NCBI RefSeq assembly: GCF_003334765.1
Contig: NZ_QOWT01000017.1
DNA from: Escherichia coli
Lineage (GTDB): Bacteria; Pseudomonadota; Gammaproteobacteria; Enterobacterales; Enterobacteriaceae
Length of the DNA stretch: 64,000 bases
Strand: one strand, 5' to 3'
Shown: piece by piece, positions 26,714 to 52,204 of the stretch
How the letters are laid out: each line of letters begins with the position of its first letter
How positions within the stretch are numbered: position 1 is the stretch's first letter
Made by a program: the position numbers and the translations under genes
The notes under the pieces: model-generated
Database searches by the model: none
The model's input: only the letters and a program-made list of their open reading frames with translations
Told to the model about the DNA's origin: nothing

Positions 26714-26743
26714 GTCGGATGCGGCGTAAACGCCTTATCCGAC
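26714..26743. repeat. Single REP element between convergent rhtB and rhtC
   Basis: GTCGGATGCGGCGTAAACGCCTTATCCGAC palindromic unit. Confidence 0.8.
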
Positions 26744-26766
26744 TTACTCTGAAGACGCGTCTGGCA

Positions 26767-27387
26767 TCACCGCGAAATAATCAAATGAATGCCAAATCCG
26801 GCAAATAACGCCCCGGCAAAACCATCAATCCACTTCGCCAGACGTTGATAACCACGGCGCATTTGCGGCAGGGCAAACAGGCTGGCAACGACGGTAAACC
26901 ACGCCAGCGTTTCGACAATGATCAGCGCAAAAATGCCCCAGCGCGCGGTAGTGCCAACGTTATCACCGACAAACAATGAGAACACCGAGCCAAAGTAGAT
27001 AATCGCTTTCGGATTAGCGAGATTGGTCAGTAAACCTTTCAGGAAACTGCGCCCACTTTTCGCCAGCTCGACCTGTGGCGCAGGTGCAGAAACCGCCTCT
27101 TTTTTCAGTGCACCACGTAGCATCTGGTAACCCATCCAGCAGAGATACAGGCCACCGCCCACCATAATCAGCGTATGCAGCCAGGCCATTTTTTCGATAA
27201 TCAAATGCAGGCCAAGCAGCGCAATCCCAGCCCAAACCATTACGCCGCAGGTAATGCCCAGCACGCCCATCATCGCTTCTTTACGGGAACGACTGACAGC
27301 GGTCTGAGAGACAAAAAAGAAATCGGGACCGGGGCTCATAAGCGCCACAATGTGCACCATGGCGACGGTGAGAAATAACATCAACAT
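26767..27387 (-). CDS. rhtC: Threonine efflux protein (LysE family)
   Basis: 206-aa 6-TM ORF, paralogue of rhtB. Confidence 0.92.
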   Translation of the reverse strand: MLMLFLTVAMVHIVALMSPGPDFFFVSQTAVSRSRKEAMMGVLGITCGVMVWAGIALLGLHLIIEKMAWLHTLIMVGGGLYLCWMGYQMLRGALKKEAVSAPAPQVELAKSGRSFLKGLLTNLANPKAIIYFGSVFSLFVGDNVGTTARWGIFALIIVETLAWFTVVASLFALPQMRRGYQRLAKWIDGFAGALFAGFGIHLIISR

Positions 27388-34087: not shown

Positions 34088-34852
34088 ATGGCGCATCAGC
34101 TACTCATTGGTAAAGGAATGATCACCTTGAATCTCAAACGGATTTTTCTCGCCCTCACCTTACTTCCCTTGTTTGCTGTTGCCGCTGATGATTGCGCACT
34201 CTCAGATCCGACGCTGACCGTACAGGCGTATACCGTTAATCCTCAAACAGAGCGGGTGAAAATGTACTGGCAAAAAGCCAATGGCGAAGCGTGGGGAACG
34301 TTACATGCTCTGCTGGCGGATATTAATAGTCAGGGTCAGGTGCAGATGGCGATGAACGGCGGCATCTATGATGAAAGCTATGCGCCGCTCGGTTTGTACA
34401 TCGAAAACGGTCAGCAGAAGGTGGCGTTAAATCTCGCTTCAGGTGAAGGGAATTTCTTTATCCGTCCTGGCGGCGTGTTTTATGTCGCGGGAGATAAAGT
34501 CGGCATCGTTCGTCTGGATGCCTTCAAAACCAGTAAAGAGATTCAGTTTGCGGTGCAGTCAGGGCCAATGTTGATGGAAAACGGTGTAATTAATCCGCGT
34601 ATTCATCCCAACGTCGCCTCAAGCAAAATTCGTAACGGTGTTGGGATTAATAAACATGGGAACGCCGTGTTTTTGTTGAGCCAGCAGGCAACAAATTTTT
34701 ATGATTTTGCCTGTTATGCCAAAGCGAAACTGAACGTTGAGCAGCTGCTTTATCTTGATGGCACGATTTCACATATGTATATGAAAGGCGGGGCAATCCC
34801 GTGGCAACGCTATCCTTTTGTCACCATGATTTCCGTCGAGCGGAAAGGTTAA
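34088..34852 (+). CDS. yigE: Exported protein YigE (function unknown)
   Basis: 254-aa ORF with signal-peptide-like N-terminus; start codon choice uncertain. Confidence 0.75.
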   Translation: MAHQLLIGKGMITLNLKRIFLALTLLPLFAVAADDCALSDPTLTVQAYTVNPQTERVKMYWQKANGEAWGTLHALLADINSQGQVQMAMNGGIYDESYAPLGLYIENGQQKVALNLASGEGNFFIRPGGVFYVAGDKVGIVRLDAFKTSKEIQFAVQSGPMLMENGVINPRIHPNVASSKIRNGVGINKHGNAVFLLSQQATNFYDFACYAKAKLNVEQLLYLDGTISHMYMKGGAIPWQRYPFVTMISVERKG

Positions 34853-34884
34853 AACGATAGTTTTGTGTCAGATACTGAAGATGG

Positions 34885-34995
34885 CGCAGATGCCGGATGC
34901 GGCGTAAACGCCCTATCCGGCCTACATGACGTTGCAATTTATTGAATCTGAATGATTTTTTAGGCCAAATAAGGTGCGCAGCACCGCATCCGGCA
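34885..34995. repeat. BIME/RIP-like element: two inverted REP units flanking a conserved central segment
   Basis: GCCGGATGCGGCGTAAACGCCCTATCCGGCCTAC ... TTGCAATTTATTGAAT ... TAGGCC...CACCGCATCCGGC between convergent yigE and uvrD. Confidence 0.8.
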
Positions 34996-34998
34996 ACG

Positions 34999-37161
34999 TT
35001 ACACCGACTCCAGCCGGGCGTATGCCGCCACCAGCCATTTAATACCCTGGCCCTGAAATGCCACCTGCAAACGGCTATGCTCACCGCTGCCTTCCATATT
35101 GACAATGGTGCCTTCACCAAACTTAGCGTGGCGTACGCGCTGGCCGAGCTTGTAGCCGCTGTCGTTCTCGACCATCGGCGTACCCATCCGCTGATGGCTG
35201 ACCGGGCGGCTTACCGTGGCGCGCAGGCGCACCTCTTCCACACACTCTTCCGGCAGCTCGCCGATAAAGCGCGACGGGCGATGGTAAACCTCTTTACCAT
35301 ACAGACGGCGGGTTTCCGCGTAGGTCAGCGTCAGTTTCTGCATCGCGCGGGTTACGCCAACGTAGGCCAGACGGCGTTCTTCTTCCAGACGCCCGCCTTC
35401 ATCCAGCGACATCTGGCTTGGGAACATGCCCTCTTCCATACCAACGATAAACACCTGCGGGAACTCCAGGCCTTTCGCCGAGTGTAGCGTCATCAACTGC
35501 ACCGCATCCTGCCAGGTATCCGCCTGCCCTTCACCTGCTTCCAGTGCCGCATGGGAGAGGAACGCCTGCAGCGGCATTAAATCTTCGTCTTCTTCGTTGT
35601 AGCTGAACTGGCGCGTTGCCGTCACCAGTTCCTCTAAGTTTTCGATACGCGTCTGACCTTTTTCGCCCTTCTCCTGCTCATACATGGTACGCAGGCCGGA
35701 GTCTTTAATTACCCGGTCAGTCTGTACATGCAGCGGCATATCGGCAGTTTCCTGCGCTAAGGCGTCGATTAATTCCATAAATCGCTGCAAGGCGCTGGCA
35801 GCTCGCCCGGCGAGGGCTTTTTCCTGCAACAGCTCACGACATGCCTGCCAGAGTGTTAACTGGCGATCGCGCGATGTCTGACGTACCACGTCCAGCGTCC
35901 GGTCACCAATACCCCGCGTTGGCGTATTCACCACACGCTCAAAGGCCGCGTCGTCGTTGCGGTTGGCAATCAGGCGCAGATACGAGAGCGCATCTTTGAT
36001 TTCCTGGCGTTCGAAGAAGCGCATCCCGCCGTAAATACGGTACGGCATACTGGCCTGCAATAACGCCTCTTCGAGCACCCGCGACTGGGCGTTGCTGCGG
36101 TAGAGAATGGCGCACTCGGCAAGCGCTCCGCCGTTGTCCTGCCAGGTTTTGATGCGGTTAACCACAAAACGCGCTTCATCGAGTTCGTTAAAAGCGCAAT
36201 AGAGGGAAATAGGCTCACCGTCCGCGCCATCGGTCCACAGTTTTTTACCCAGACGCCCGTTATTGTTTTCAATCAGGGCGTTAGCGGCGCTCAGAATATT
36301 GCTGGTAGAGCGGTAGTTTTGCTCCAGACGAATAGTTTCGGCACCGGGGAAATCATTAAGGAAACGCTGAATATTCTCCACCTGCGCCCCGCGCCAGCCG
36401 TAGATTGACTGGTCGTCATCACCGACGATCATCACTTTGCCGGTGTCGCCCGCCAGCAGGCGGATCCACGCGTACTGAATGTTGTTGGTATCCTGGAATT
36501 CGTCCACCAGGATATTGGTAAAACGTTCGCGGTAGTGTTGCAGGATATGCGGCTTGTTAAGCCACAACTCGTGAGCGCGCAGCAGCAGCTCGGCGAAGTC
36601 CACCAGGCCCGCGCGGTCACACGCTTCCTGATACGCCTGATACACCTTCTGCCAGGTCTGCTCCACCGGATTACCGTAGCTTTGAATATGATGCGGACGC
36701 AGGCCTTCATCTTTCTGGCTGTTGATGTACCACATTGCCTGCCGCGGCGGCCACTGCTTCTCGTCGAGGTTCATGGCTTTGATCAGACGCTTAAGCAGGC
36801 GTAGCTGGTCTTCACTGTCGAGGATCTGGAAATCCTGCGGCAGATTGGCGTCCATATGGTGCGCACGCAGCAAACGGTGCGCCAGCCCGTGGAAGGTGCC
36901 GACCCACATACCGCCCTGGCTCGTGCCCATCAGTTGCCCGATACGATGACGCATCTCCGCCGCCGCTTTGTTGGTAAACGTCACCGCCATAATCGAGTAT
37001 GGCGAGCAGTTTTCCACGCTCATCAACCAGGCGATACGATGCACCAGTACGCGCGTCTTACCACTGCCCGCGCCCGCCAGCACCAGAAGGTTGCTGCGTG
37101 GCGCGGCCACCGCTTCGCGCTGTTTGTCATTAAGGCTGTCGAGCAGGTAAGAAACGTCCAT
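34999..37161 (-). CDS. uvrD: DNA helicase II (UvrD)
   Basis: 720 aa from MDVSYLLDSLNDKQREAV with Walker A GAGSGKT; track ORF extended 63 codons upstream. Confidence 0.95.
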   Translation of the reverse strand: MDVSYLLDSLNDKQREAVAAPRSNLLVLAGAGSGKTRVLVHRIAWLMSVENCSPYSIMAVTFTNKAAAEMRHRIGQLMGTSQGGMWVGTFHGLAHRLLRAHHMDANLPQDFQILDSEDQLRLLKRLIKAMNLDEKQWPPRQAMWYINSQKDEGLRPHHIQSYGNPVEQTWQKVYQAYQEACDRAGLVDFAELLLRAHELWLNKPHILQHYRERFTNILVDEFQDTNNIQYAWIRLLAGDTGKVMIVGDDDQSIYGWRGAQVENIQRFLNDFPGAETIRLEQNYRSTSNILSAANALIENNNGRLGKKLWTDGADGEPISLYCAFNELDEARFVVNRIKTWQDNGGALAECAILYRSNAQSRVLEEALLQASMPYRIYGGMRFFERQEIKDALSYLRLIANRNDDAAFERVVNTPTRGIGDRTLDVVRQTSRDRQLTLWQACRELLQEKALAGRAASALQRFMELIDALAQETADMPLHVQTDRVIKDSGLRTMYEQEKGEKGQTRIENLEELVTATRQFSYNEEDEDLMPLQAFLSHAALEAGEGQADTWQDAVQLMTLHSAKGLEFPQVFIVGMEEGMFPSQMSLDEGGRLEEERRLAYVGVTRAMQKLTLTYAETRRLYGKEVYHRPSRFIGELPEECVEEVRLRATVSRPVSHQRMGTPMVENDSGYKLGQRVRHAKFGEGTIVNMEGSGEHSRLQVAFQGQGIKWLVAAYARLESV

Positions 37162-37219
37162 TGGCACCGCCGCGTAAAAATAGGTTGGGCGGAGAAGCGC
37201 AACGCCCTCCGCCAAAAAG

Positions 37220-37235
37220 CTGGGTATATATACAG
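37220..37235 (-). promoter_or_regulatory. LexA (SOS) box in the uvrD promoter
   Basis: CTGGGTATATATACAG = CTG-N10-CAG with central TATATATA, about 60 bp upstream of the uvrD ATG. Confidence 0.8.
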
Positions 37236-37244
37236 ATTTGCTGA

Positions 37245-37961
37245 TTATATCAGCGAGGTCAGAGATGCCAACCGGGAAATTTCCAGATGCGGCAGTAAAC
37301 GGCTGTCCCAGGTTTGCATCAGATCGCCATTTTCCGGTCTGATCCAACAAGCCTGCATTCCGCTGCGAATTGCCCCACCCACGTCAGTGGTGAGATCGTC
37401 CCCAACATGTAAGATCTCGCCGATCGGCACGTTGAGTTTTTCCGCAGCCAAAAAGTACATATCGCTGAACGGTTTTGAGCGCCCGTGCGGGCCAGCGCGC
37501 AGCACAAACTCAAAATAATCCCCCAAACCAAACAGCTCCGGCTGGGCGTTACCGTTGGTGATCGCCACCAGCGGCCATTTCTTCGCCAGCTGTTTTAAGG
37601 TGTCGTGAGTTTGCTGCGGGACGTCGATTCGGCTGCGCCATTTGGCAAAGTTGATCATTGCTGCGTGTGCGCCTGCACTGGCTTCTTCGGCACTCAGCCC
37701 GGCGTCGAGCATCGCTTGTTCAATCGAACGAAAACGCCAGCGCGTCACGTCGTGATAAATCTCGGGTTCCGCTTCCCGTACCGCCTGGCGCAGGCGTTGC
37801 AGATCTTCATTCTGGAAGCTGCGCAGCGCCGGATGATAATTTTGCACAAAGGTAAGCGCCTCTCGCTCGGTGCGCAAAATCACCGGACGGTTATCGTAAA
37901 GGGTATCATCCAGGTCAAAGGTGAGCGCCGAGATGCGCCCCAAAGGCCGGTAAAAACGCAT
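37245..37961 (-). CDS. yigB: HAD-family phosphatase YigB
   Basis: 238-aa ORF with HAD motif I ([12 protein letters not shown]). Confidence 0.88.
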
Positions 37962-38857
37962 TATTTCCCCCGTTTGGCGCGTGGATGCGCCGCATCGTAC
38001 ACCGAGGCAAGGTGTTGAAAATCAAGATGAGTATAGATTTGCGTGGTGGAGAGGTTGGCATGACCCAGCAGCTCCTGCACACCACGAAGATCGCCGCTCG
38101 ACTCCAGCATATGCGTGGCGAACGAGTGACGTAATTTATGCGGATGAACGTGATTATTCAGCCCTTGTTTTATGCCCCATTCGGCAAAGCGTTTCTGCAC
38201 ATTACGCGCGGAGATACGCTTGCCCAGTTTCGACAGAAAAAGCGCGTCGTCTTCGCTACCAAACAGGTCGCGCAAATCAAGCCAGTGCTCAATCCACGCC
38301 ACAGCGTTGCGACCAATCGGCAGGCGGCGCTCTTTGCTGCCTTTCCCCATAACCCACACTTCACCAGACTCCAGGTCGAGGTGTTTAATATCCAGCCCCA
38401 CCAGCTCAGAAAGACGCAGACCCGCGCCGTACATCACTTCCAGCATTGCACGGTCGCGTACAGCGAGGGGATCATTGATATCAATATCCAGCAGCCGATT
38501 CATATCGTCGACGTCGATGTTTTTCGGCAGATGACGCGGCGCTTTCGGTGCCGAAACACCTTTCGCCGGGTTAGCTTTGAGTTCGTTCTGGCTGACCAGC
38601 CAGTCAAAAAAGCTACGTAGCGCAGAAAGCCGTAACGCCAGACTTGCTGCTCCCAGCCCTTTACGGCGACTGCGTACAGCAAAATTGCGCACCATCGTCA
38701 CATCACATTGCTGCCAGCTTTGCAGGCCGTTTTCGCTGGCAAAATTGATGATCGCCTCAAGCTGACGCTGGTAGTTAAGCAGGGTTATCGGGCTAAGCTG
38801 GCGCTCCACGCTCAGATAACGTAGGTAGCGTTCTACATCGGTGTGTAAATCGGTCAT
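37961..38857 (-). CDS. xerC: Tyrosine site-specific recombinase XerC
   Basis: 298-aa ORF with R..HxxR..Y catalytic residues ([10 protein letters not shown] ... IYTHL). Confidence 0.95.
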
Positions 38858-39561
38858 ACGCGTTCAATCCAACGCTCCAGAAGCTCCGGCAACATCAGCG
38901 CAATTTCATGAAGTAACTGCGTTCCTTGCCCTTGTTGATAGTGACTGGCATCGCGACTGGTAAACAGCACGACACCCAAATCAGCATCGCTTCCCAGCAT
39001 CGACATCGCCACCGATCCCACCGCTTTCGCTTCCGGTAGCACCACCAGCAGCTCTGGTCCGTTAAGCGGCCCAAGATAGTGCTGTTCCTGCCCCAAACGC
39101 TGAATACGCAGCGGTTCGAAAGACTGACGGCTTAATGCCAGATGAGTGTGGTTCGACGGCGCACCTAAGCGCCAGCGATCCGGAAACAGGCGCAGACTCG
39201 CACCTGCCAGGCCGAGATCGCGCGCCCAGCGGTGAAAGCGCATCAGCATATCGTCGAGACTGCTGGCGGCGGTGAGACTGCGCTGCAGGTAGAGTAGGCG
39301 ATAAAACAGGCCTTCGTTGGCGATAGCCTGTTCCATCAACAGCGCCATGTTCTCTTCCAGAACATGAATATGATTACGTGCGCGGGCCATGTGCCACTCG
39401 ACCAACGAAACGGTGCCGCGTACCGGATGCGGCACACGTATCGCTTCTACTGCGCGCGCATTACGGATAAAAAACTCAGGATTTTTAATCAGATAATCGA
39501 CAACCGCCCGGTCATCAAGCTCCGTGAGTGTTTCCTGCAGTTCTTCCCCTGGTTGCTTCAT
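38854..39561 (-). CDS. yigA: DUF484-family protein YigA
   Basis: 235-aa ORF between dapF and xerC with 4-nt overlaps at both ends. Confidence 0.82.
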
Positions 39562-40382
39562 AGATGAATAAATCCGTCGTAGACATGTACCGCCGGGCCA
39601 GTCATATATAACGGGTGACCCGGACCTTTCCAGGCGATATCAAGACGACCGCCGGGGAGTTCCACGCGTACTTCTTCGGCCAGCAAACCTTGCTGAATCC
39701 CTACTGCAACCGCCGCACACGCGCCGCTGCCGCAGGCCTGGGTTTCTCCTGCCCCACGCTCATAAACGCGTAAACGAATATGCTCGCGCTTAACCACTTG
39801 CATAAAACCGATATTGGCGCGCTCCGGAAAACGCTCGTGGCTTTCCAGAACAGGACCAAGCGTTTCTACCGCCGCGGTATCGACATCATCGACCTGAATC
39901 ACGCAATGCGGATTTCCCATCGACACCACGCCGCATAAGATTGTCTGCTCGGCGGCGCGCATAATATAGGTCTTTTCCGCTTTGTTAGCGCGAAACGGCA
40001 CGGCGGAAGGTTCGAAGTTGGGTTCGCCCATATTTACGCGGACCAGATCATCATCGGTGACGGTCAGAACCATCCGCCCGTTGGCGGTGCTGACGCGGAT
40101 ATCACGCTTATTGGTCAGTCCTTTCAGACGCACAAAACGGGCAAAGCAGCGCGCACCGTTGCCGCACTGCGCCACTTCACTGCCATCAGCATTGAAAATG
40201 CGATAGTGAAAATCCAGTTCAGGATCATACGGCGGCTCAACCACCAGCAGTTGGTCAAACCCTACCCCCAGGTGCCGATCAGCCAGGCGACGAATCAGCT
40301 CCGGTGAAAAAAAGACATTCTGCGTTACCGCGTCGACGACCATAAAATCGTTGCCAAGGCCATGCATTTTCGAGAACTGCAT
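39558..40382 (-). CDS. dapF: Diaminopimelate epimerase
   Basis: 274 aa from [17 protein letters not shown]; catalytic Cys motifs. Confidence 0.95.
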
Positions 40383-40418
40383 CATTTACTCCAATCACGC
40401 GGGTACAGAAACTGACTT

Positions 40419-40622
40419 TTAGTAATTCACCTGGGATGGACCATCGCCAGTGGCGCGATCGTTTTTATCCGGCACCGTGGATTGCGTTTGCGTCTCTACC
40501 GGTTTGGTCGGCGGCGGTGCGTTTTTATCTGCAGGCGGGAAATAGAGCGGACCTTTCAGACCGCAGCCCGTCAGGCTGAAGAGAGTAAGTAATACAGTGA
40601 GTGCCTTAAACACGTTTTTCAT
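40419..40622 (-). CDS. yifL: Small lipoprotein YifL
   Basis: 67-aa ORF with lipobox LTGC and Pro-rich tail. Confidence 0.85.
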   Translation of the reverse strand: MKNVFKALTVLLTLFSLTGCGLKGPLYFPPADKNAPPPTKPVETQTQSTVPDKNDRATGDGPSQVNY

Positions 40623-41084
40623 TATGGATTGCCTGTAAAGTTCATCGCTTTCTGCTTTCTATCATCGCAGGAGAAGACGTAAAAGCAAGCGTTTAGCGAC
40701 TCTTTATGAAGTCTGAAAAGTGAGGAAATGCTGCGAGTATAACGCTTACTCGTGGGGATTTATGTTTTGCTGGTAGTTTCGTGATCGGCACCTCGCGCCA
40801 GGATGGCTTTATGCACTATCGCAATGTGGTTTGTTTGTTGTCTTTTTTAGTTCCGTCAGCGTGAGGATGCTCGCTCGGTAAACCTGATCATAATGTTTAC
40901 CAGAAACAGGGAAAGACGTGGTGTAACTGCGCCCTAATGAAGAGACAAATCTTTCGCTACACAGAGACATCATTATTCCGGTGACGGATGAATCGTGCCG
41001 GAACGCAGCCGCAGAGGTGCAAACTTTGAAGCCCTGACCCCATGCCGCTATACTGCCGCCATCACTTAAAAACAGGATACAACA

Positions 41085-41405
41085 ATGAACGACAGTGAAT
41101 TTCATCGCCTGGCTGATCAACTCTGGCTGACCATTGAAGAACGCCTGGACGACTGGGATGGCGACAGCGATATCGACTGCGAAATCAACGGCGGCGTACT
41201 GACCATTACCTTTGAGAATGGCAGCAAAATCATTATCAACCGCCAGGAGCCGCTGCACCAGGTATGGCTGGCAACCAAACAGGGCGGCTACCATTTTGAC
41301 CTGAAAGGCGATGAGTGGATTTGTGATCGCAGCGGCGAAACCTTCTGGGATTTGCTGGAACAGGCGGCGACGCAGCAGGCGGGTGAAACAGTCAGTTTCC
41401 GCTAA
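41085..41405 (+). CDS. cyaY: Frataxin homologue CyaY (iron-sulfur cluster assembly)
   Basis: 106-aa acidic ORF, recognised CyaY. Confidence 0.93.
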
Positions 41406-41444
41406 GATTGCATGCCGGATAAGCCTCGCTTTCCGGCACGTTCA

Positions 41445-43991
41445 TCACGAAAAATATTGCTGTAATAGCGGCGTATCGTGATCCTGATTGGCAGGCGGCA
41501 TGTTACCGATAGATTTTGTGCGGAACGGAATCACCTGTTCACGACCATCAACCTTCACAATCTGATAGAACTGCGGCAGGTTGAAGTTGATGAAGCTTGA
41601 GCCGTAGGTAAAACGGTCATGCGATGACGAGTAGAAGCGACTGACGTCACGTACCAGCTCCTCTTTGCTGCCTTCGCAGTGGTGATATACCTCAACCCGG
41701 TTGCTTTCGTCGAGAATGTAGATATTAAAGCCATTCTCGTCTTGCGTTTCTTCGAAAAAGAACTGGATGATCCCTTCGCTGGCAAAGCCGTCCACCACCG
41801 CCGGTAATTTGACGTGATTGGTTTCAACCTGCACTGACAGGCCGTGCAGTTTGTTATGCGAAATCGCGCCATAAAACTCGATGGCGTTTTCCAGTTTCTG
41901 TACCGATACATTCAGGCGTTCGAAGAACAACCCCCAGGTTTGACCAGAAACGCGCAGCGCCTTGAAACGCCCGGTTTCCTGGCGGGTGCTGGAAAGACGC
42001 AATTCAATACACTCAGAAACCAGTTGCTGCACGCGAGTACGAATTAAGCCGCGCAGATGCTGGCTATAACAGAAGACTTCCACGCTATCTGGCGGTGCGG
42101 CGTCCTGATGCATTTTGCCGAGAATAGTTTTCAGGGCTTCGATCATCGATTGCTCGCCGTTGAAGTGCAGCGTACGCACTTCGTTCCACGAGTTGCGGTA
42201 CAGCAGGTCAACGCTACCTACCAGGCAATTTTGATTCTCGCCAAAGCTGAAGACATCCAGCTTACGGAAATCGAAATGCACCACCTGATTGCGGAACGCC
42301 GCTGTCGGGTCATATTCCAGGTTAACGATAATCGCCAGATGGCGGATCTCACACGGGCTGTAGAGCGCCTTCGGTGTCGGTGCAGGTAAGCGCAGCGGGA
42401 AATGGTGCGACACGTCGGCGACCATCTCCTGCAACTTAGGCAAATCGACAATGCCGTTACCTTTAATATACAAACGGGTGCGCGAGGTCAGCAGGCCGTT
42501 AAACCATGCCCACGCCACCAGTTTATTCAGGTAACGGTTATATTCCAGCGGCTGATGGCTGATGATCGACTCAATATTTGGCGCGCGGTTATACAGATAC
42601 CAACCTGAACGGTTAGCCCGGCCCGGCGGCACATAAATAAAGGTCAGATTCGGTTCCGAGAGATCGGGTGAAATCTGCGGGTTTACCAGCGTCACTTTAC
42701 CTGGTAATGCTTCAAACGCGGCATACAGCTTACGCGTCAGCACGCCGATATCCTGCGGACTGGCGGAGACGCTAAGGTTATTGCGACGCGCAAAGCGGAT
42801 CAGATTACGGTAGCTCTGCATCATCGCGTCGAGCAACTCGTTGTGCGCCTCACGCACCTGATCAATCTTCCAGTTAGCGCGGTTATCGAGCATTGCCAGA
42901 CGAGCTTCGTCCCAACCCCACTCGCTCACTAACTGGCTCAACACTGCGCGACGCCAGCCTACGCAGGCGCGTTCACGGCTGAGCTTTTCGCACACTTTTA
43001 AATAGAAGCAGCGACGTACTAAATCCAGACGGGTAAAATCTTCAATCGCCGTCAGGTATTCAGTAACACGCTCCAGCATCATGCAGTATGGATCGAGACC
43101 AAACGATACAATCTCGCCGTCGTGCAAACGCTGTTTGATATCTTTCGCCAGCAGACGTGGGTTCGGGTATTCCCAGGAATAGGCTTCCAGCAGCAGTGTT
43201 TTCAGTACCGCTTTGTATGGGGAATCGATACTCTTGTAGAGCTGCCAAAGGCTGGCACCAAAGTACTCTTCAGCAGAAAGCGAGCTTAAGCCACCGAGAT
43301 CCAGCCATTCATTTGGCGTCAGCACGCCCTGCGCGTAAAGCGTCATCACATAGTCGTCGTAATGCTCTTCTTCGTCGCACGGCACCATATTCCACAGAAT
43401 ACGCTTACCGGCGAGACGCACGGCGGTACGATAAAATTCGTCAAGCAGCAGTATATGCTGGGTGGAGCCACAATCTTCGCCCCCCAGGCTGCCGCTTTCA
43501 TTATGACGGAAGCGGTTTTCATCAATCAGGAAGAAGCTGACTTCCACACCCAGCGAGGCGGCCCAGTTTTCCAGCAGGCTACATTTACGTTGTAGCAATT
43601 GGCGCTCTTCGCTATCGAGCCAGGATTGATGACAGACCCAGATATCCAGGTCAGAGGAACAACTTTGCCCTACGGACGAGGTGCTGCCCATGGTGTATAC
43701 ACCAGTAATTGGAAGCTCACCTTTCGGCGGATCCTGTACTGACATTCCACGATACAGTTCAAGCTCGTTCAGGTAGTGGCGTTGAGTTTCATCAGGCGTG
43801 TAAAGGCAAATGCCTTTGGGAACGTTACCATCAAGGTAACCCGGCATTAGCGGATGGTGATAGTGCAACAATGTCGGCAGTAGACTGTAGACCTGTTGGA
43901 ATGCAGGCCCCATAGCAGCAAGCGCGCGATCCACACGCAATTGATTTATGGCATCCAGTCTCTGTTTCAGAGTCTCAATATAGAGGTACAA
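41445..43991 (-). CDS. cyaA: Adenylate cyclase, class I
   Basis: 848-aa ORF; initiation codon is TTG (plus-strand CAA at 43989-43991). Confidence 0.95.
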
Positions 43992-44145
43992 GACGTATCG
44001 CCTGATTTGCTACCCGTCATGACTGTGATTCCGCCAACATCAACGGTAACACGCGGCATTCGGGATATTTCGTATGTCAAAGGTAACCGTTACCACTTTT
44101 CGCGCCTGGTTTTTTTAGTTTCACGACGAAAAAATGGTCTAAAAC

Positions 44146-44161
44146 GTGATCAATTTAACAC
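44146..44161. promoter_or_regulatory. CRP-binding site in the cyaA promoter region
   Basis: GTGATCAATTTAACAC (TGTGA-N6-TCACA class) about 155 bp upstream of the cyaA start. Confidence 0.6.
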
Positions 44162-44377
44162 CTTGCTGATTGACCGTAAAGAAAGATGCGCTACATACAA
44201 GTGTAGCACCGTTTATTCTCTGTAAATTCCTTATTACAACGGCGTGAAACGCCTGTCAGGATCCACTGCCAGACCTCATTTTACGGTTTGCGCAGGCGTC
44301 TACGTTTCACCACAACACTGACATCACTCTGGCAAGGATGTTAGGATGGACCACGGATGATAATGACGGTAACAAGC

Positions 44378-45319
44378 ATGTTAGACAATGTTTTAAGAAT
44401 TGCCACACGCCAAAGCCCACTTGCACTCTGGCAGGCACACTATGTCAAAGACAAGTTGATGGCGAGCCATCCGGGCCTGGTCGTTGAACTGGTACCGATG
44501 GTGACGCGCGGCGATGTGATTCTTGATACGCCGCTGGCGAAAGTAGGCGGAAAAGGCTTATTTGTAAAAGAGCTGGAAGTCGCGCTCCTCGAAAATCGCG
44601 CCGATATCGCCGTACACTCAATGAAAGATGTGCCGGTTGAATTCCCGCAAGGTCTGGGACTGGTCACTATTTGTGAGCGTGAAGATCCTCGCGATGCCTT
44701 TGTGTCCAATAACTATGACAGTCTGGATGCGTTACCGGCAGGCAGTATCGTCGGGACGTCCAGTTTACGTCGCCAGTGCCAACTGGCTGAACGCCGTCCG
44801 GATCTGATTATCCGCTCCCTGCGCGGCAACGTCGGCACTCGCCTGAGCAAACTGGATAACGGCGAATACGATGCCATCATTCTTGCCGTAGCCGGACTAA
44901 AACGTTTAGGTCTGGAGTCACGTATTCGCGCCGCGTTGCCACCCGAGATTTCTCTTCCGGCGGTAGGACAAGGTGCGGTGGGTATTGAATGCCGCCTTGA
45001 TGATTCACGCACTCGCGAGCTGCTTGCCGCGCTGAATCACCACGAAACTGCACTGCGCGTTACCGCAGAACGCGCCATGAATACCCGTCTCGAAGGCGGA
45101 TGTCAGGTGCCAATTGGTAGCTACGCCGAGCTTATTGATGGCGAAATCTGGCTGCGTGCGCTGGTCGGCGCGCCGGACGGTTCGCAGATTATTCGCGGTG
45201 AACGCCGCGGTGCGCCGCAAGATGCCGAACAAATGGGGATTTCGCTGGCAGAAGAGCTACTGAATAACGGCGCGCGCGAGATCCTCGCTGAAGTCTATAA
45301 CGGAGACGCCCCGGCATGA
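44378..45319 (+). CDS. hemC: Porphobilinogen deaminase (hydroxymethylbilane synthase)
   Basis: 313 aa from [20 protein letters not shown]; track ORF extended 7 codons. Confidence 0.95.
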
Positions 45320-46056
45320 GTATCCTTGTCACCCGCCCGTCTCCCGCTGGAGAAGAGTTAGTGAGCCGTCTGCGCACACTGGGGCAGGTGGCCTGGCATT
45401 TTCCGCTGATTGAGTTTTCTCCGGGTCAACAATTACCGCAACTTGCTGATCAACTGGCAGCGCTGGGGGAGAGCGATCTGTTGTTTGCCCTCTCGCAACA
45501 CGCGGTTGCTTTTGCCCAATCACAGCTGCATCAGCAAGATCGTAAATGGCCCCGACTACCTGATTATTTCGCCATTGGACGCACCACCGCACTGGCACTA
45601 CATACCGTAAGCGGACAGAAGATTCTCTACCCGCAGGATCGGGAAATCAGCGAAGTCTTGCTACAATTACCTGAATTACAAAATATTGCGGGCAAACGTG
45701 CGCTGATATTACGTGGCAATGGTGGTCGTGAGCTAATTGGGGATACCCTGACGGCGCGCGGTGCTGAGGTCACTTTTTGTGAATGTTATCAACGATGCGC
45801 AATCCATTACGATGGTGCAGAAGAAGCGATGCGCTGGCAAGCCCGCGAGGTGACGATGGTCGTTGTTACCAGCGGTGAAATGTTGCAGCAACTCTGGTCG
45901 CTGATCCCACAATGGTATCGTGAGCACTGGTTACTACACTGTCGACTATTGGTCGTCAGTGAGCGTTTGGCGAAACTCGCCCGGGAACTGGGCTGGCAAG
46001 ACATTAAGGTCGCCGATAACGCTGACAACGATGCGCTTTTACGGGCATTACAATAA
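45316..46056 (+). CDS. hemD: Uroporphyrinogen-III synthase
   Basis: 246-aa ORF overlapping hemC stop by 4 nt. Confidence 0.93.
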
Positions 46057-46077
46057 CTCTCATAACAGGAAGCCATA

Positions 46078-47277
46078 ATGACGGAACAAGAAAAAACCTC
46101 CGCCGTGGTTGAAGAGACCAGGGAGGCCGTGGACACCACGTCACAACCTGTCGCAACAGAAAAAAAGAGTAAGAACAATACCGCATTGATTCTCAGCGCG
46201 GTGGCTATCGCTATTGCTCTGGCGGCGGGCATCGGTTTGTATGGCTGGGGTAAACAACAGGCCGTCAATCAGACCGCCACCAGCGATGCCCTGGCTAACC
46301 AACTGACGGCATTGCAAAAAGCCCAGGAGAGCCAAAAAGCCGAGCTGGAAGGCATTATTAAGCAACAAGCTGCACAACTTAAGCAGGCGAATCGTCAGCA
46401 AGAAACGCTGGCAAAACAGTTGGATGAAGTCCAACAAAAGGTCGCCACCATTTCCGGCAGCGATGCTAAAACCTGGCTGCTGGCTCAGGCCGATTTTCTG
46501 GTGAAACTCGCCGGACGGAAGCTGTGGAGCGATCAGGACGTCACGACCGCTGCAGCGTTGCTGAAAAGTGCAGACGCCAGCCTGGCGGATATGAATGACC
46601 CGAGTCTGATTACCGTTCGTCGGGCAATTACCGATGATATCGCCAGCCTTTCTGCAGTATCGCAGGTGGATTATGACGGCATCATCCTTAAGCTTAATCA
46701 GCTTTCAAATCAGGTAGATAACCTGCGTCTGGCCGATAATGACAGCGATGGTTCGCCGATGGATTCAGACGGTGAAGAGCTTTCCAGTTCCATCAGCGAA
46801 TGGCGTATCAATCTGCAAAAAAGCTGGCAGAACTTTATGGACAACTTCATTACGATTCGCCGTCGTGATGACACCGCCGTACCGCTGTTAGCGCCAAATC
46901 AGGATATCTATCTGCGCGAAAATATTCGCTCTCGCCTGCTGGTCGCAGCACAAGCTGTACCGCGTCACCAGGAAGAGACTTATCGCCAGGCGCTGGAGAA
47001 CGTCTCCACCTGGGTACGTGCTTACTACGATACTGATGATGCCACCACCAAAGCGTTCCTCGACGAGGTGGACCAGTTAAGCCAGCAAAATATCTCGATG
47101 GATCTTCCGGAAACCCTGCAAAGCCAGGCGATGCTGGAAAAACTGATGCAGACTCGCGTGCGTAACCTGCTGGCACAACCGGCAGCGGGGACAACGGAAG
47201 CTAAACCTGCACCTGCACCTGCACCTGCACCTGCACCGCAAGCTGATACTCCGGCAGCCGCGCCGCAAGGAGAATAA
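46078..47277 (+). CDS. hemX: HemX (putative uroporphyrinogen-III C-methyltransferase-like membrane protein)
   Basis: 399-aa ORF with N-terminal TM helix, coiled-coil region and Pro-Ala repeat near the C terminus. Confidence 0.88.
47206..47235 (+). repeat. Perfect tandem hexanucleotide repeat (CCTGCA)x5 encoding (Pro-Ala)5 within hemX
   Basis: Five contiguous identical CCTGCA units read directly from the sequence. Confidence 0.9.
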
Positions 47278-47279
47278 CC

Positions 47280-48476: not shown

Positions 48477-48523
48477 TTCCTTCTCACCCGGAGGCAAGCA
48501 CCTCCGGGGCCTTCCTGATACAT

Positions 48524-49154: not shown

Positions 49155-50810
49155 ATGGAATTTTCGTTTTCACCCAAACGTCTTGTTGTTGCTGTCGCCG
49201 CCGCTCTTCCTCTCATGGCCAGCGCAGCAGATACCCCGTCAACTGCCACCGCACGCAAAGGCTTTGCCGGATACGATCACCCAAACCAGTATCTGGTTAA
49301 ACCGGCGACCACTATTGCCGACAATATGATGCCAGTAATGCAGCATCCGGCGCAGGATAAAGAAACCCAGCAGAAGCTGGCAGAACTTGAGAAAAAAACC
49401 GGTAAGAAACCGAATGTGGTTGTTTTCTTGCTGGACGATGTGGGCTGGATGGACGTCGGTTTTAACGGTGGCGGCGTGGCGGTGGGTAACCCTACACCAG
49501 ATATCGACGCCGTTGCCAGCCAGGGGCTGATTTTAACTTCGGCGTATTCTCAACCAAGCTCTTCCCCAACCCGCGCCACCATTCTCACCGGACAATACTC
49601 CATCCACCACGGCATTCTGATGCCGCCAATGTACGGGCAACCGGGCGGGCTGCAAGGGTTAACCACGCTGCCGCAGTTGCTGCACGATCAGGGCTACGTC
49701 ACTCAGGCCATCGGAAAATGGCATATGGGGGAAAACAAAGAGTCGCAGCCGCAGAACGTTGGCTTTGATGATTTCCGTGGCTTTAACTCGGTGTCTGATA
49801 TGTACACCGAATGGCGCGACGTTCACGTCAATCCGGAAGTGGCCCTGAGTCCGGACCGTTCTGAATACATCAAGCAATTACCGTTCAGCAAAGATGACGT
49901 TCATGCGGTGCGCGGCGGCGAACAACAGGCCATTGCCGACATTACGCCGAAATATATGGAAGATCTGGATCAACGCTGGATGGACTATGGCGTTAAGTTC
50001 CTCGACAAGATGGCGAAGAGCGATAAACCATTCTTCCTCTACTACGGCACTCGTGGCTGCCACTTCGATAACTACCCAAATGCGAAATATGCGGGTAGCT
50101 CTCCGGCACGCACCTCGTATGGCGACTGCATGGTGGAGATGAACGATGTGTTCGCTAATCTGTATAAAACACTGGAGAAAAACGGTCAGCTTGATAACAC
50201 GCTGATCGTCTTTACCTCCGATAACGGACCGGAAGCCGAAGTACCGCCGCACGGACGCACCCCGTTCCGTGGTGCGAAAGGTTCGACCTGGGAAGGCGGC
50301 GTTCGCGTACCGACTTTCGTTTACTGGAAAGGGATGATCCAACCGCGTAAATCTGACGGTATTGTCGATCTGGCAGATCTCTTCCCTACCGCGCTGGATC
50401 TGGCAGGGCATCCTGGAGCGAAAGTGGCGAATTTAGTGCCGAAAACCACCTTTATCGATGGTGTGGACCAGACATCCTTCTTCCTGGGAACAAATGGTCA
50501 GTCTAACCGTAAGGCCGAGCACTACTTCCTCAACGGTAAACTCGCTGCTGTGCGTATGGATGAGTTCAAGTATCACGTCCTGATTCAGCAACCTTACGCT
50601 TATACCCAGAGCGGATATCAGGGTGGATTCACCGGCACAGTAATGCAAACGGCGGGATCGTCGGTGTTTAACCTCTACACCGATCCGCAGGAAAGCGACT
50701 CCATCGGCGTGCGCCATATTCCGATGGGTGTACCGCTACAGACCGAAATGCACGCGTATATGGAGATCCTGAAAAAATATCCACCACGCGCGCAGATTAA
50801 ATCTGACTAA
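49155..50810 (+). CDS. aslA: Arylsulfatase-like protein AslA
   Basis: 551-aa ORF with signal peptide and sulfatase signature [12 protein letters not shown]. Confidence 0.92.
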
Positions 50811-50837
50811 GCCGGCGCTATCGCTGAGATCTGCCTT

Positions 50838-50945
<108 letters not shown>

Positions 50946-50968
50946 CAACCGCAGGCGGCCGCCGATTT

Positions 50969-52204
50969 CTACTTACTCACCACCAGCAAATGCGCATGCA
51001 TAATGTCGCTGGCCGGGCGACCGTGCGCCAGCAAATCAGCCATTGCTTTAAGATATGGCGGTAGATGGCGGAAATAACGCTGATACCCGGCACACAAATA
51101 ATTCAGTCCCGGTTTGCCGCTGGCATCGAGCATGAAGCGGTGTTTCGGGCAGCCTCCCCAGCACGCTTTTAACACGTTACAACTGCGACACTGCGCCGGT
51201 AACTGCTTAAATTTATCTTCACCAAACGCCTGCTGTTGCGGGGAATCGATCATTTCTGCAATTGTTTGCTGGTGCATATTCCCCAGCCGATATTGCGGAT
51301 AAACATAGTGATCACAGGCGTAAACGTCGCCGTTGTGCTCAACAATCACCGAGCGCCCACAGGTTGGCTGATGATGGCAAACCGCACCCGGCGCACCGAC
51401 AAAATTGGCAAACGCCCATTCGATATTCATCACGAAAATCTTGCCGACGTCGCGTTTGATCCAGTGGTCGAATATCGCCACCAGAAACTCACCGAACTCC
51501 TCGGGGCGCACCGACCATTCCGTTAGCTCACCCTGAATATCACCAGGCGCATGTAACTTAAGTCCATCGCGGGCAGTTGTTTCATCAGCCAGGCGCTCGA
51601 CCACCGGAATAAACTGGATGAATTCGACTCCCGCATCGCACAAAAAATCATATACCTGCAACGGTTGCTGCGCGCTGGTGCGATTAACGCAGACCAGCAC
51701 GTTATAGTCGACATGATGTTTTTGCAGGAGCGTCAGGGCACGCATCACCAGCTTATGCGTGGGTCTGCCACCTTTAGTCACGCGATATTGATTGTGGATC
51801 TCAGGCGGGCCATCCAGCGATAAACCAACAAGAAAATGATGCTCCGCGAGAAACGCGCACCATTCGTCATCCAGCAGCACGCCGTTAGTCTGGAAGCTGT
51901 TACTTATCTTCCTGCCAGCACCATATTTCGCCTGTAGCGCTACGGCACGGCGGTAAAACGCCAGCCCGAGTAGCGTTGGTTCGCCGCCCTGCCAGGTAAA
52001 AGCCACTTCGTTTTGCGGTTCGCTGGCAGCGATATAGTGACGGACATACGCTTCCAGCGTGTCATCGTCCATATGCGTGACTGGCTTTTCGCGGTAAAGG
52101 GATTGTTTTTCGAGATAAAAACAGTAGTCACAGTTCAGATTACAATCGGAACCGCTCGGTTTCGCCATCACATGAAAAGCACGCGTTGGAACCTGTTGCA
52201 GCAT
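50969..52204 (-). CDS. aslB: Radical SAM anaerobic sulfatase-maturating enzyme homologue
   Basis: 411 aa from MLQQVPTRAFHVMAKPSG; CX3CX2C motif (CNLNCDYC) and C-terminal Cys-rich SPASM-like region; track ORF extended 10 codons. Confidence 0.9.
   Translation of the reverse strand: MLQQVPTRAFHVMAKPSGSDCNLNCDYCFYLEKQSLYREKPVTHMDDDTLEAYVRHYIAASEPQNEVAFTWQGGEPTLLGLAFYRRAVALQAKYGAGRKISNSFQTNGVLLDDEWCAFLAEHHFLVGLSLDGPPEIHNQYRVTKGGRPTHKLVMRALTLLQKHHVDYNVLVCVNRTSAQQPLQVYDFLCDAGVEFIQFIPVVERLADETTARDGLKLHAPGDIQGELTEWSVRPEEFGEFLVAIFDHWIKRDVGKIFVMNIEWAFANFVGAPGAVCHHQPTCGRSVIVEHNGDVYACDHYVYPQYRLGNMHQQTIAEMIDSPQQQAFGEDKFKQLPAQCRSCNVLKACWGGCPKHRFMLDASGKPGLNYLCAGYQRYFRHLPPYLKAMADLLAHGRPASDIMHAHLLVVSK

What the first reader, a model, noticed from the sequence alone, without database searches (positions are those of the whole stretch)
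34885..34995. Two RIP-like elements share a conserved central core flanked by inverted REPs
The yigE-uvrD element and the aslA-aslB element (50838-50945), about 16 kb apart, have the same build: REP, then CTACA..GCAATTTATTGAAT..TAGG, then inverted REP. The shared 14-mer GCAATTTATTGAAT is consistent with the IHF-binding class of BIME (RIP). Both sit at convergent gene ends.
Basis: partly seen in the sequence, partly recalled or inferred. Interest (0 to 1): 0.3.

Follow-up and report, generated by a model that had tools for sequence, protein, structure and literature searches.

The report
Two known IHF-site REP elements (RIPs)
The two spots are ordinary copies of a long-known E. coli repeat, a pair of inverted REP hairpins around a conserved linker that carries a binding site for the DNA-bending protein IHF; they are real, but not new.

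Summary
At 34891-34995 (yigE/uvrD) and 50838-50943 (aslA/aslB) an inverted REP ending in CTAC, a 34-nt linker and a (G/T)TAG REP sit between convergent stop codons. Both linkers contain TGCAATTTATTGAAT.

This is the "L" linker of the BIME-1 / RIP / RIB class:
- It occurs at a median of at least 31 places in each of 5,426 E. coli genomes.
- It also occurs in other Escherichia species and in Pseudocitrobacter.
- The aslA/aslB core matches a published ChAP-seq IHF consensus (YAWnnnnYTGAWWW) 14 of 14; the yigE/uvrD core matches 13 of 14.

IHF occupancy at these two loci could not be checked, because no ChIP table was reachable.

Neither copy is canonical. The usual build is short Z1 REP, L linker, Y REP (100 of 119 copies). 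Both copies here have a long Z2-like arm instead of Z1. At yigE/uvrD the arms are ordered as in BIME-2, and one arm has lost its GTAG. The two copies are no closer to each other than to any other family member.

Both loci are polymorphic in E. coli. The aslA/aslB element is inverted in K-12 relative to E. albertii, E. whittamii and some E. coli.

Verdict: already known, low interest.

The parts
34891..34925 (-). Element 1, left arm: Y-type REP. Its GTAG end reads on the minus strand; on the plus strand the arm ends in CTAC.
   Evidence: Sequence. It is 36/38 identical to the Y arm of element 2 and scores 0.89 against the Y consensus.
34926..34959 (+). Element 1, 34-nt L-type linker ATGACGTTGCAATTTATTGAATCTGAATGATTTT.
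   Evidence: Up to 29 of its positions match non-orthologous L linkers from other genomes; the family median is 26. Rfam ES036 gives a full-length weak hit at 34918-34959.
34935..34948 (+). Element 1, IHF-like core CAATTTATTGAATC. It matches YAWnnnnYTGAWWW at 13 of 14 positions; the last W is a C.
   Evidence: The consensus is taken from PMC13036160.
34960..34995 (+). Element 1, right arm: a long, Z2-like REP that is decaying in this strain. GTAG has become TTAG and GCCGGAT has become GCCAAAT. It abuts the uvrD stop codon.
   Evidence: E. whittamii keeps GTAGGCCGTATAAGG... at the orthologous site.
50838..50874 (-). Element 2, left arm: long Z2-like REP TGCCGGATGCGATGCTGACGCATCTTATCCAGCCTAC. 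A canonical copy has the short Z1 REP in this position.
   Evidence: score 0.68 against Z2, 0.47 against Z1.
50875..50908 (+). Element 2, 34-nt L-type linker AGAACGCTGCAATTTATTGAATTTGCACGATCAT.
   Evidence: The minus strand at 50881-50902 is identical to positions 7-28 of the Rfam RF02751 (ES036) consensus; the score is 30 bits, below the gathering score of 37.6.
50884..50897 (+). Element 2, IHF-like core CAATTTATTGAATT. It matches YAWnnnnYTGAWWW exactly.
50909..50943 (+). Element 2, right arm: Y-type REP GTAGGCCGGATAAGGCGTTTACGCCGCATCCGGCA.
   Evidence: score 0.94 against the Y consensus.
34088..34852 (+). yigE, the gene converging on element 1 from the left.
34999..37161 (-). uvrD, the gene converging on element 1 from the right. 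The stop codon is at 34999-35001. The upper coordinate comes from the 2,163-nt annotated CDS.
49155..50810 (+). aslA, the gene converging on element 2 from the left.
50969..52204 (-). aslB, the gene converging on element 2 from the right. The upper coordinate comes from the 1,236-nt annotated CDS.

Best explanation
Both features are copies of the enterobacterial repeat called BIME-1, RIP (repetitive IHF-binding palindromic element) or RIB. The repeat consists of two REP hairpin units in inverted orientation around a roughly 34-nt 'L' linker, and the centre of the linker is an IHF recognition sequence.

Shown here:
- The two-arm architecture.
- Membership of a large conserved linker family.
- A match to the published IHF consensus.
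- Position between convergent 3' ends.
- The ability of either strand to fold into one long hairpin with the IHF core at its tip.

Inferred from the literature on the class (Boccard & Prentki 1993 and Oppenheim et al. 1993, as cited in PMC3333891 and PMC6639932):
- On double-stranded DNA, IHF binds the linker and bends it sharply, which brings the two REP arms together at the end of a transcription unit.
- On RNA, the REP stems act as 3' hairpins for the two converging messages.

In REP composition both copies are non-canonical ('atypical' chimeric BIMEs). Element 2 is Z2-like arm, L linker, Y arm. Element 1 is Y arm, L linker, Z2-like arm, with one decayed arm.
For: Architecture and coordinates.

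Family membership:
- A consensus L-linker query hits every one of 5,426 E. coli genomes, at a median of at least 31 places per genome.
- A genome-collection scan gave 117 matches. 111 of them are REP-flanked copies in Escherichia and Pseudocitrobacter genomes, and 100 of 119 (window copies included) have the build Z1, L, Y.
- Seventeen further elements were found through their arms alone. All 17 carry an L-type linker in the same polarity, and 15 of the 17 match YAWnnnnYTGAWWW exactly. Only 0.2% of random 34-mers from the window do so.

IHF motif: element 2 matches 14/14 and element 1 matches 13/14.

Class definition and the link to IHF: PMC3333891, PMC2892488, PMC6639932.

Convergent 3' ends.

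Whole-element hairpins: minimum free energy -54.6 to -73.3 kcal/mol, z-scores -4.7 to -7.0 on all four strands, with the IHF core in the apical loop.

Orthologous copies sit at the same intergenic sites in E. whittamii, E. albertii and E. coli E69.
Against:
- The degenerate IHF consensus is not rare. There are 15 exact matches in the window against 8.35 expected, so a match alone proves little.
- Element 1 has a mismatch in the motif, a mutated GTAG and a weakened stem.
- Neither copy has the Z1 REP that defines strict BIME-1.
- Both elements are dispensable and unstable within E. coli. The yigE/uvrD copy is absent from about 44% of genomes. At least one strain has the same arms with a short linker and no IHF core.
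- The aslA/aslB copy is collapsed, truncated or inverted in many genomes.

Together these points argue against a strong locus-specific function.
Confidence: 0.85

Rival explanations
1. The elements are non-autonomous mobile DNA: REPIN-type REP doublets spread by the REP-associated tyrosine transposase (TnpA-REP, also called RAYT). On this view they persist neutrally. The IHF motif is a passenger feature of the linker, or a host factor site for the element's own mobility, and does nothing for the flanking genes.
For: - Each element is an inverted REP doublet that folds into one long hairpin, which is the REPIN definition (PMC8049555).
- In vitro, TnpA-REP needs the GTAG and cleaves at CC|TAC and in linkers (PMC3333891).
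- Both loci show presence/absence, collapse, truncation, linker-swap and inversion alleles across E. coli. Neutral or selfish DNA would be expected to behave this way.
- Element 1 is visibly decaying in K-12 (TTAG in place of GTAG).
Against: - The copies sit at the same intergenic positions in species with about 90% protein identity, so they are old residents rather than recent insertions.
- The IHF core is kept in 15 of 17 linkers that were chosen without regard to it. Drift alone does not explain that.
- This view does not exclude the main explanation. It disputes the benefit of the element, not its identity.
Confidence: 0.3
2. The relevant molecule is RNA. The element would act as a bidirectional 3' hairpin for the two converging messages, stabilising them or attenuating transcription. 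Alternatively, the linker is itself a small RNA of the ES036/CssrF kind, and the IHF-like sequence is only the loop of that hairpin.
For: - Both strands fold far better than shuffled sequence (z -4.7 to -7.0).
- The element begins within about 40 nt of one stop codon, and ends 3 nt (element 1) or 25 nt (element 2) from the other.
- The consensus of Rfam RF02751 (ES036) is identical to the minus-strand core of element 2 over 22 nt.
- REPs are described as mRNA stabilisers and terminators (PMC3333891), and many are transcribed (PMC4550694).
Against: - The ES036 matches are below the gathering score: 30 and 19.5 bits against 37.6.
- There is no intrinsic-terminator-like site at element 2, and only a weak one at element 1.
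- An RNA loop has no need to keep an asymmetric sequence that matches the IHF consensus in 15 of 17 independently selected linkers.
- The element works in either orientation at aslA/aslB. That is neutral for a symmetric hairpin, but gives no positive support.
Confidence: 0.2
3. The resemblance between the two sites is a chance match, or the trace of a recent duplication or gene conversion specifically between these two loci.
For: They share an exact 15-mer, the same 34-nt linker length and the less common TTTATT form of the core.
Against: - Chance is excluded. At up to 2 mismatches there are 4 hits against 0.8 expected, with 0 of 100 shuffles reaching 4, and both exact hits are REP-flanked.
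- Special kinship is excluded. The two linkers share 26 of 34 positions, which equals the median similarity of either one to all 111 family linkers, and other loci are closer at up to 29.
- The arm arrangement differs between the two elements.
Confidence: 0.01

Closest known systems
BIME-1 / RIP (repetitive IHF-binding palindromic element; Oppenheim, Rudd et al. 1993) / RIB (Boccard & Prentki 1993)
   Same: - Two REPs in inverted orientation.
- A single copy rather than a tandem array.
- A long (34-nt) conserved L linker with an IHF consensus at its centre.
[quoted passage not shown]
- Dozens of copies per E. coli genome.

   Different: - A canonical copy is a short Z1 REP, a 35-nt L linker and a Y REP (100 of 119 copies).
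- Element 2 has a long Z2-like arm instead of Z1, and the left part of its linker is one base shorter.
- Element 1 has the Y arm on the side where Z1 normally sits, and a decayed Z2-like arm on the other side.
- IHF binding was not demonstrated here for either copy.
Atypical (chimeric) BIMEs, sensu Bachellier/Gilson as summarised in PMC3333891
   Same: They combine motifs of BIME-1 (the L linker) with REP types and an arm order typical of BIME-2 (Y next to a long Z2-like REP). In E. coli JNEC-KY178 the yigE/uvrD site carries the same two arms with a 14-nt short linker, that is, a BIME-2-like unit.
   Different: Atypical BIMEs are described as occurring in multiple tandem copies. Both elements here are single units.
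BIME-2 (Y / Z2 REPs with short S linker; gyrase target)
   Same: REP arms of the Y type and the long-Z type. A true example lies in the same window at 7640-7822.
   Different: BIME-2 has 14-15-nt linkers without an IHF core, is tandemly repeated, and is the class cleaved by gyrase (PMC6379681). The elements here have the L linker.
REPIN (REP doublet forming hairpin) mobilised by RAYT/TnpA-REP
   Same: An inverted REP doublet that folds into one long hairpin on either strand. The GTAG/CTAC tetranucleotides are in the expected places.
   Different: - REPIN spacers are described as short and highly diverse, whereas the spacer here is a conserved 34-nt module.
- The right arm of element 1 has lost its GTAG.
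- No transposase gene is involved at these loci.
Rfam RF02751, ES036 (CssrF) sRNA
   Same: Positions 7-28 of the model consensus (GUGCAAAUUCAAUAAAUUGCAG, a 5-bp stem with a 10-nt loop) are identical to the minus strand of element 2 at 50881-50902.
   Different: Both matches are below the gathering score (30 and 19.5 bits against 37.6). Only the core is matched at element 2. No evidence was obtained that these loci give a discrete sRNA.

Membership tests
RIP / RIB (IHF-site BIME) | Two REP units in inverted orientation flanking a central spacer | tested here: met
   The arms are at 34891-34925 / 34960-34995 and at 50838-50874 / 50909-50943.
RIP / RIB (IHF-site BIME) | The spacer contains a sequence matching the IHF consensus | tested here: met
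   Element 2 matches YAWnnnnYTGAWWW 14/14 and element 1 matches 13/14. Against the classical 13-mer TAAnnnnTTGATW both have 2 mismatches (consensus strings from PMC13036160). Random 34-mers from the window reach 0 mismatches in 0.2% of trials and 1 mismatch or fewer in 3.1%.
RIP / RIB (IHF-site BIME) | IHF actually binds the element, in vitro or in vivo | not testable with these tools
   No ChIP or footprint table could be reached. Binding is inferred from class membership only.
RIP / RIB (IHF-site BIME) | [quoted passage not shown] | tested here: met
   Both elements lie between convergent stop codons.
BIME-1 (strict, PMC3333891) | Long, well-conserved L linker | tested here: met
   Both 34-nt linkers share 26-29 positions with family linkers. 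The canonical consensus is AtGGTTTCTGCAATATATTGAATTTGCAcGATTTT. The linker family is present in all 5,426 E. coli genomes.
BIME-1 (strict, PMC3333891) | Composed of one Z1 and one Y REP, with Z1 on the TGCAAT side of L | tested here: not met
   Element 2 is Z2-like (score 0.68 against 0.47 for Z1) plus Y. Element 1 has Y on the Z1 side plus an unclassified long REP. Caveat: the Z1, Y and Z2 consensus strings used were derived from the sample and from recalled nomenclature, not from a curated table.
BIME-1 (strict, PMC3333891) | Occurs as a single copy, not a tandem array | tested here: met
   There is one unit at each locus.
Atypical (chimeric) BIME | Mixed combination of BIME-1 and BIME-2 motifs (y, z1, z2, L, S ...) | tested here: met
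   An L linker sits between a Y REP and a long Z2-like REP. An allele with the same arms and a 14-nt short linker exists at the yigE/uvrD site.
Atypical (chimeric) BIME | Occurs in multiple tandem copies | tested here: not met
   Both loci carry single units.
REPIN | REP doublet able to form one hairpin in single-stranded nucleic acid | tested here: met
   Minimum-free-energy structures pair the left arm with the right arm on all four strands, with z-scores of -4.7 to -7.0.
REPIN | Intact GTAG recognition tetranucleotide on both REPs | tested here: inconclusive
   Element 2 has CTAC and GTAG intact. The right arm of element 1 reads TTAG in this strain and GTAG in E. whittamii.
Rfam RF02751 ES036 | Score at or above the family gathering threshold (37.6 bits) | tested here: not met
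   30.0 bits at 50881-50902 and 19.5 bits at 34918-34959. There was no hit in the whole-window gathering scan.

The most novel reading that the evidence does not exclude
The REP arms and the IHF-bearing L linker may behave as separable, recombining modules, and the near-palindromic element may turn around in place.

What supports this reading:
- At aslA/aslB the whole arm-linker-arm unit is inverted in K-12 relative to E. albertii, E. whittamii and some E. coli.
- At yigE/uvrD the same pair of arms carries either an L linker or a short linker.
- Collapse alleles keep only the outer stem.

If these changes are recurrent and enzyme-driven rather than rare accidents, RIPs would be small invertible or exchangeable cassettes that reset the polarity or the presence of an IHF bend between convergent genes. 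Candidate mechanisms are recombination between the arms, or TnpA-REP cleavage at CTAC.
Probability: 0.2. Interest if true: 0.35.

Novelty: already known. Interest (0 to 1): 0.1.

Why it matters
It matters little. The finding re-identifies a repeat class described in 1991-1993, so no new mechanism or family is implied.

It is useful as annotation. These two intergenic regions of the E. coli chromosome should be labelled as L-linker (IHF-site) BIMEs, which the RefSeq records used here do not annotate.

The side results have modest interest for people who study REP/BIME dynamics. They show at base resolution that one RIP locus can exist as inverted, collapsed, truncated and linker-swapped alleles within one species. 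They also show that neither the linker's orientation nor the REP type of the arms is fixed at these loci.

Tried and rejected
**IHF occupancy.** I looked for ChIP or ChAP tables in the supplements of PMC3333857, PMC8407004, PMC9104697 and PMC13036160. None was held, or none mentioned these genes.

**Primary papers.** Boccard & Prentki 1993 and Bachellier 1997 are not held. Statements about them rest on the papers that cite them and on general knowledge.

**REP/RIP features in NC_000913.3.** None are annotated in the copy available.

**Lists of BIMEs in supplements** of PMC3333891 and PMC4550694: not held.

**'The two elements are arm-swapped versions of each other.'** This was kept only for the Y arm (36/38). 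The other arms are equally distant from each other and from Y (30/39 against 29/39). The better description is a chimera with BIME-2-like arm order.

**Special kinship between the two elements.** Rejected.

**A third RIP in the window.**
- The IHF-consensus hit at 26778-26791, next to a REP, is a single REP followed by unrelated sequence.
- 7640-7822 is a BIME-2-type array.

**Motif statistics.** The degenerate IHF consensus alone is not significantly enriched in the window: 15 matches against 8.35 expected, and 2 of 100 shuffles reached 15. It was not used as stand-alone evidence.

**A clean inversion at aslA/aslB by recombination within the arms.** Not fully supported. The 12-20 nt between aslA and the element also differ between the two orientations.

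Full report
**Source of the window.** The window is E. coli K-12-like DNA. A 701-nt stretch around the first element is 100% identical to many E. coli chromosomes, including a K-12 MG1655 record, and lies under yigE and uvrD. NC_000913.3 places yigE, uvrD, aslA and aslB as expected, in reverse orientation to the window. That RefSeq record lists no repeat features at either site.

**The observation.** Both elements are there as described.
- Element 1: TGCCGGATGCGGCGTAAACGCCCTATCCGGCCTAC (34891-34925), a 34-nt linker ATGACGTTGCAATTTATTGAATCTGAATGATTTT (34926-34959), then TTAGGCCAAATAAGGTGCGCAGCACCGCATCCGGCA (34960-34995).
- Element 2: TGCCGGATGCGATGCTGACGCATCTTATCCAGCCTAC (50838-50874), a 34-nt linker AGAACGCTGCAATTTATTGAATTTGCACGATCAT (50875-50908), then GTAGGCCGGATAAGGCGTTTACGCCGCATCCGGCA (50909-50943).

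The 14-mer occurs exactly twice in 64 kb. At up to two mismatches there are 4 hits against 0.8 expected, and no shuffle out of 100 reached 4. Each element lies between convergent stop codons: yigE ends at 34852 and uvrD at 34999, aslA ends at 50810 and aslB at 50969.

**What the shared core is.** It is the centre of a repeated linker, not a private similarity between two loci.
- A 47-nt consensus linker query finds every one of 5,426 complete E. coli genomes. The median is 31 places per genome, a lower bound because 1,777 records hit the 40-piece limit.
- One scan of 100,044 species genomes with CCTACA-N5-7-TGCAANNTATTGAAT returned 104 loci and 117 matches.
- 111 of those matches are REP-flanked copies, from E. 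albertii, E. whittamii, two E. coli-labelled genomes, two unnamed Escherichia species and three Pseudocitrobacter genomes. Two of the 111 sit on contigs labelled Alistipes and Methylobacterium that carry E. coli sequence. The other 6 matches have no REPs and are chance hits.
- The main E. coli representative, E. fergusonii and E. marmotae were not in the list. The list may therefore be incomplete, and I do not claim a taxonomic range beyond 'at least Escherichia and Pseudocitrobacter'.

**The canonical build.** Read with the core as TGCAATATATTGAAT, it is: short REP TGCCTGATGCGCTACGCTTATCAGGCCTAC, then a 35-nt linker AtGGTTTCTGCAATATATTGAATTTGCAcGATTTT, then the Y REP GTAGGCCGGATAAGGCGTT(C/T)ACGCCGCATCCGGCA.
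- 100 of 119 copies, window copies included, have this Z1, L, Y arrangement.
- This matches the published definition of BIME-1: z1 and y REPs, a single copy, and a long well-conserved L linker that frequently carries an IHF site (PMC3333891).
- It also matches the description of RIPs as REP elements containing an IHF site (PMC2892488).
- Reviews cite Boccard & Prentki 1993 and Oppenheim et al. 1993 for IHF binding to these elements at 3' ends of transcription units (PMC6639932). I could not open those primary papers.

**The IHF motif.**
- A 2026 ChAP-seq study derived YAWnnnnYTGAWWW from its top 500 IHF peaks and quotes the classical 13-mer TAAnnnnTTGATW (PMC13036160).
- Element 2 (CAATTTATTGAATT, 50884-50897) matches the 14-mer exactly. 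Element 1 (CAATTTATTGAATC) misses only the last W.
- The match is weak evidence by itself: the window holds 15 exact matches against 8.35 expected.
- The stronger argument comes from the family. I searched about 966 kb of fetched loci for REP arms alone, with a 20-50-nt spacing and no condition on the linker. This found 17 elements that the linker pattern had missed.
- All 17 have an L-type linker in the same polarity. 15 match the IHF consensus exactly and 2 have one mismatch. Random 34-mers of the window reach these levels in 0.2% and 2.9% of trials.
- Several of the 17 are tandem copies, so they are not fully independent.
- Direct evidence of occupancy at these two loci could not be obtained.

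**Single-strand folding.** Either strand of either element folds into one long hairpin. The left arm pairs with the right arm, and the partly palindromic linker (TGCAA...TTGCA) extends the stem. The asymmetric IHF core forms the apical loop. Free energies are -54.6 to -73.3 kcal/mol, with z-scores of -4.7 to -7.0 against shuffles.
- This is the REPIN geometry (PMC8049555).
- It is compatible with a role as a 3' RNA hairpin for both converging messages.
- Simple terminator scans find nothing at element 2 and only a weak site at element 1.
- Rfam's ES036 (CssrF) model is the linker core. Its consensus positions 7-28 are identical to the minus strand of element 2, but the score (30 bits) is below the gathering score of 37.6.

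**How the two copies differ from the canon and from each other.**
- Both have one base fewer between CCTACA and TGCAA, and both have the TTTATT form of the core. Both features also occur elsewhere in the family.
- Their linkers share 26 of 34 positions. That is exactly the median similarity of either one to all 111 family linkers, and unrelated loci are closer at up to 29. The two are therefore not a special pair.
- Neither has a Z1 arm. Element 2 has a long arm (GATGC-TGAC-GCATC at the top of the stem) that scores best against the Z2 consensus, followed by L and then Y.
- Element 1 has a Y arm on the side where Z1 normally sits, and a long arm (GGTGC-GCA-GCACC) on the other side.
- In this strain the long arm of element 1 has TTAG for GTAG and GCCAAAT for GCCGGAT. 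E. whittamii keeps GTAG at the orthologous site.
- E. coli JNEC-KY178 has the same two arms at yigE/uvrD with a 14-nt linker (CAAGAGCCATTTCT) and no IHF core, that is, a BIME-2-like unit.
- Element 1 is therefore best described as BIME-2-type arms with an L linker. That makes it an 'atypical', chimeric BIME in the vocabulary of PMC3333891, except that it is not tandemly repeated.
- My Y/Z1/Z2 typing rests on consensus strings taken from this sample, plus nomenclature recalled and partly checked. It should be confirmed against the original tables.

**Polymorphism at yigE/uvrD.**
- Only 3,012 of 5,426 genomes align through the element.
- In O157:H7 and others, a 903-bp gene annotated as a SAM hydrolase/SAM-dependent halogenase family protein lies between yigE and uvrD. 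Only a perfect hairpin, GATGCCGGATGCGGTG-TGGC-GCACCGCATCCCGCA, remains next to uvrD. It corresponds to the outer halves of the two K-12 arms.
- E. whittamii has yigE, RIP, uvrD as in K-12, so the element is old at this site.

**Polymorphism at aslA/aslB.** At least five states exist.
- The K-12 form.
- The same unit in the opposite orientation, in E. albertii, E. whittamii, E. coli E69 and E. coli EC42405. It is 98-99 of 106 identical to K-12 when reverse-complemented, against 82-85 of 111 when read directly. The direct value equals the element's own palindromic self-similarity of 84 of 111.
- A collapse of the K-12 form between GCATC direct repeats, in ST131.
- A collapse of the inverted form at TCCGGC, in strain 104.
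- A deletion of most of aslA that ends at the CTAC of the left arm and keeps L and Y, in strain 10205, E24377A and roughly a third of genomes.

The 12-20 nt between aslA and the element also differ between the two orientations, so the inversion is not a clean exchange within the arms. [quoted passage not shown] 1997, cited).

**Mechanism.**
- Shown: the architecture, family membership, motif match, hairpin potential and genomic position.
- Inferred from the class: IHF binds the linker on duplex DNA and makes its sharp bend at the dyad centre, folding the two REP arms back on each other at the junction of two converging transcription units. The REP stems in the transcripts serve as 3' hairpins.
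- The population data argue against a strong function at these particular loci. The elements are lost, collapsed, inverted or linker-swapped without obvious consequence. A selfish or neutral REPIN reading therefore remains a serious rival regarding benefit, though not regarding identity.

**Verdict.** The thing is already known, as RIP/RIB/BIME-1-class or formally atypical L-linker BIMEs. Interest is low.

Noticed in passing
window 50838-50943; L009, L054, L073; hit H81: The whole aslA/aslB arm-linker-arm unit is inverted in K-12 relative to E. albertii, E. whittamii, E. coli E69 and E. coli EC42405. It is 98-99/106 identical as the reverse complement against 82-85/111 when read directly. The 12-20 nt on the aslA side also differ between the two orientations.
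   Followed up: partly
L110 (E. coli ST131), L111 (E. coli strain 104), aslA/aslB intergenic region: These are 'collapsed' alleles in which only a small hairpin remains. ST131 joins the left arm to the right flank at a GCATC direct repeat. Strain 104 joins a Y arm to the flank at TCCGGC, apparently starting from the inverted allele.
   Followed up: partly
L109 (E. coli strain 10205) 1061-1280; also E24377A (H75): In roughly a third of E. coli genomes most of aslA is deleted, leaving a 138-nt pseudogene. The deletion ends at or next to the CTAC of the left REP, and the L linker and Y arm are kept. These alleles also carry a proper hairpin plus T-run before aslB, which K-12 lacks.
   Followed up: partly
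L107 577-1479 (E. coli O157:H7), L108; corresponds to window ~34853-34975: About 44% of complete E. coli genomes carry a 903-bp gene (SAM hydrolase/SAM-dependent halogenase family) between yigE and uvrD in place of the RIP. A perfect 13-bp-stem hairpin made of the outer halves of the two REP arms remains next to uvrD. Strain ESBL 15 lacks yigE as well.
   Followed up: partly
L114 (E. coli JNEC-KY178) ~165-305: This strain has the same two REP arms at yigE/uvrD as K-12, but with a 14-nt short linker (CAAGAGCCATTTCT) instead of the 34-nt L linker, so no IHF core is present.
   Followed up: no
L088, L089, L095, L096 (Escherichia sp. MOD1-EC7003); L063, L084, L086: Z1-L-Y units occur in tandem arrays of up to 5-6 copies with a period of about 115 nt. 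BIME-1 is described as single-copy in E. coli K-12 (PMC3333891).
   Followed up: no
window 7640-7822: A BIME-2-type array of alternating Y and long Z2 REPs with 14-15-nt linkers. Rfam naRNA4 (RF02564) matches 7692-7769 on the minus strand at 92 bits, above its gathering score of 59.5.
   Followed up: no
window 50881-50902 (-) and 34918-34959 (-): The Rfam family RF02751, ES036 (CssrF) sRNA, is in effect a model of the L-linker core. Its 22-nt consensus segment is identical to element 2, but both hits are below the gathering score.
   Followed up: partly
L059 (contig labelled uncultured Alistipes sp.) and L067 (261-nt contig labelled Methylobacterium frigidaeris): Both contigs carry E. coli-type sequence. 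L059 holds yigE, RIP and uvrD at 99-100% protein identity to the window. They look like contamination or mis-binning in the public assemblies.
   Followed up: partly
window 26714-26746: A solitary REP (GTCGGATGCGGCGTAAACGCCTTATCCGAC) with no partner arm. The nearby IHF-consensus match at 26778-26791 is not part of a RIP.
   Followed up: yes
window 34999-50969: The distance between the uvrD and aslB stop codons is 15,970 nt in the window and 15,952 nt in NC_000913.3. The window therefore differs from MG1655 by a net 18 nt somewhere in this interval.
   Followed up: no
window 14915-15166, 48524-48730, 52354-52787: Rfam matches at gathering level: Erse sRNA (RF02757), GlmZ (RF00083) and four tRNA genes. 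The four tRNAs correspond to the argX-hisR-leuT-proM cluster of NC_000913.3.
   Followed up: no
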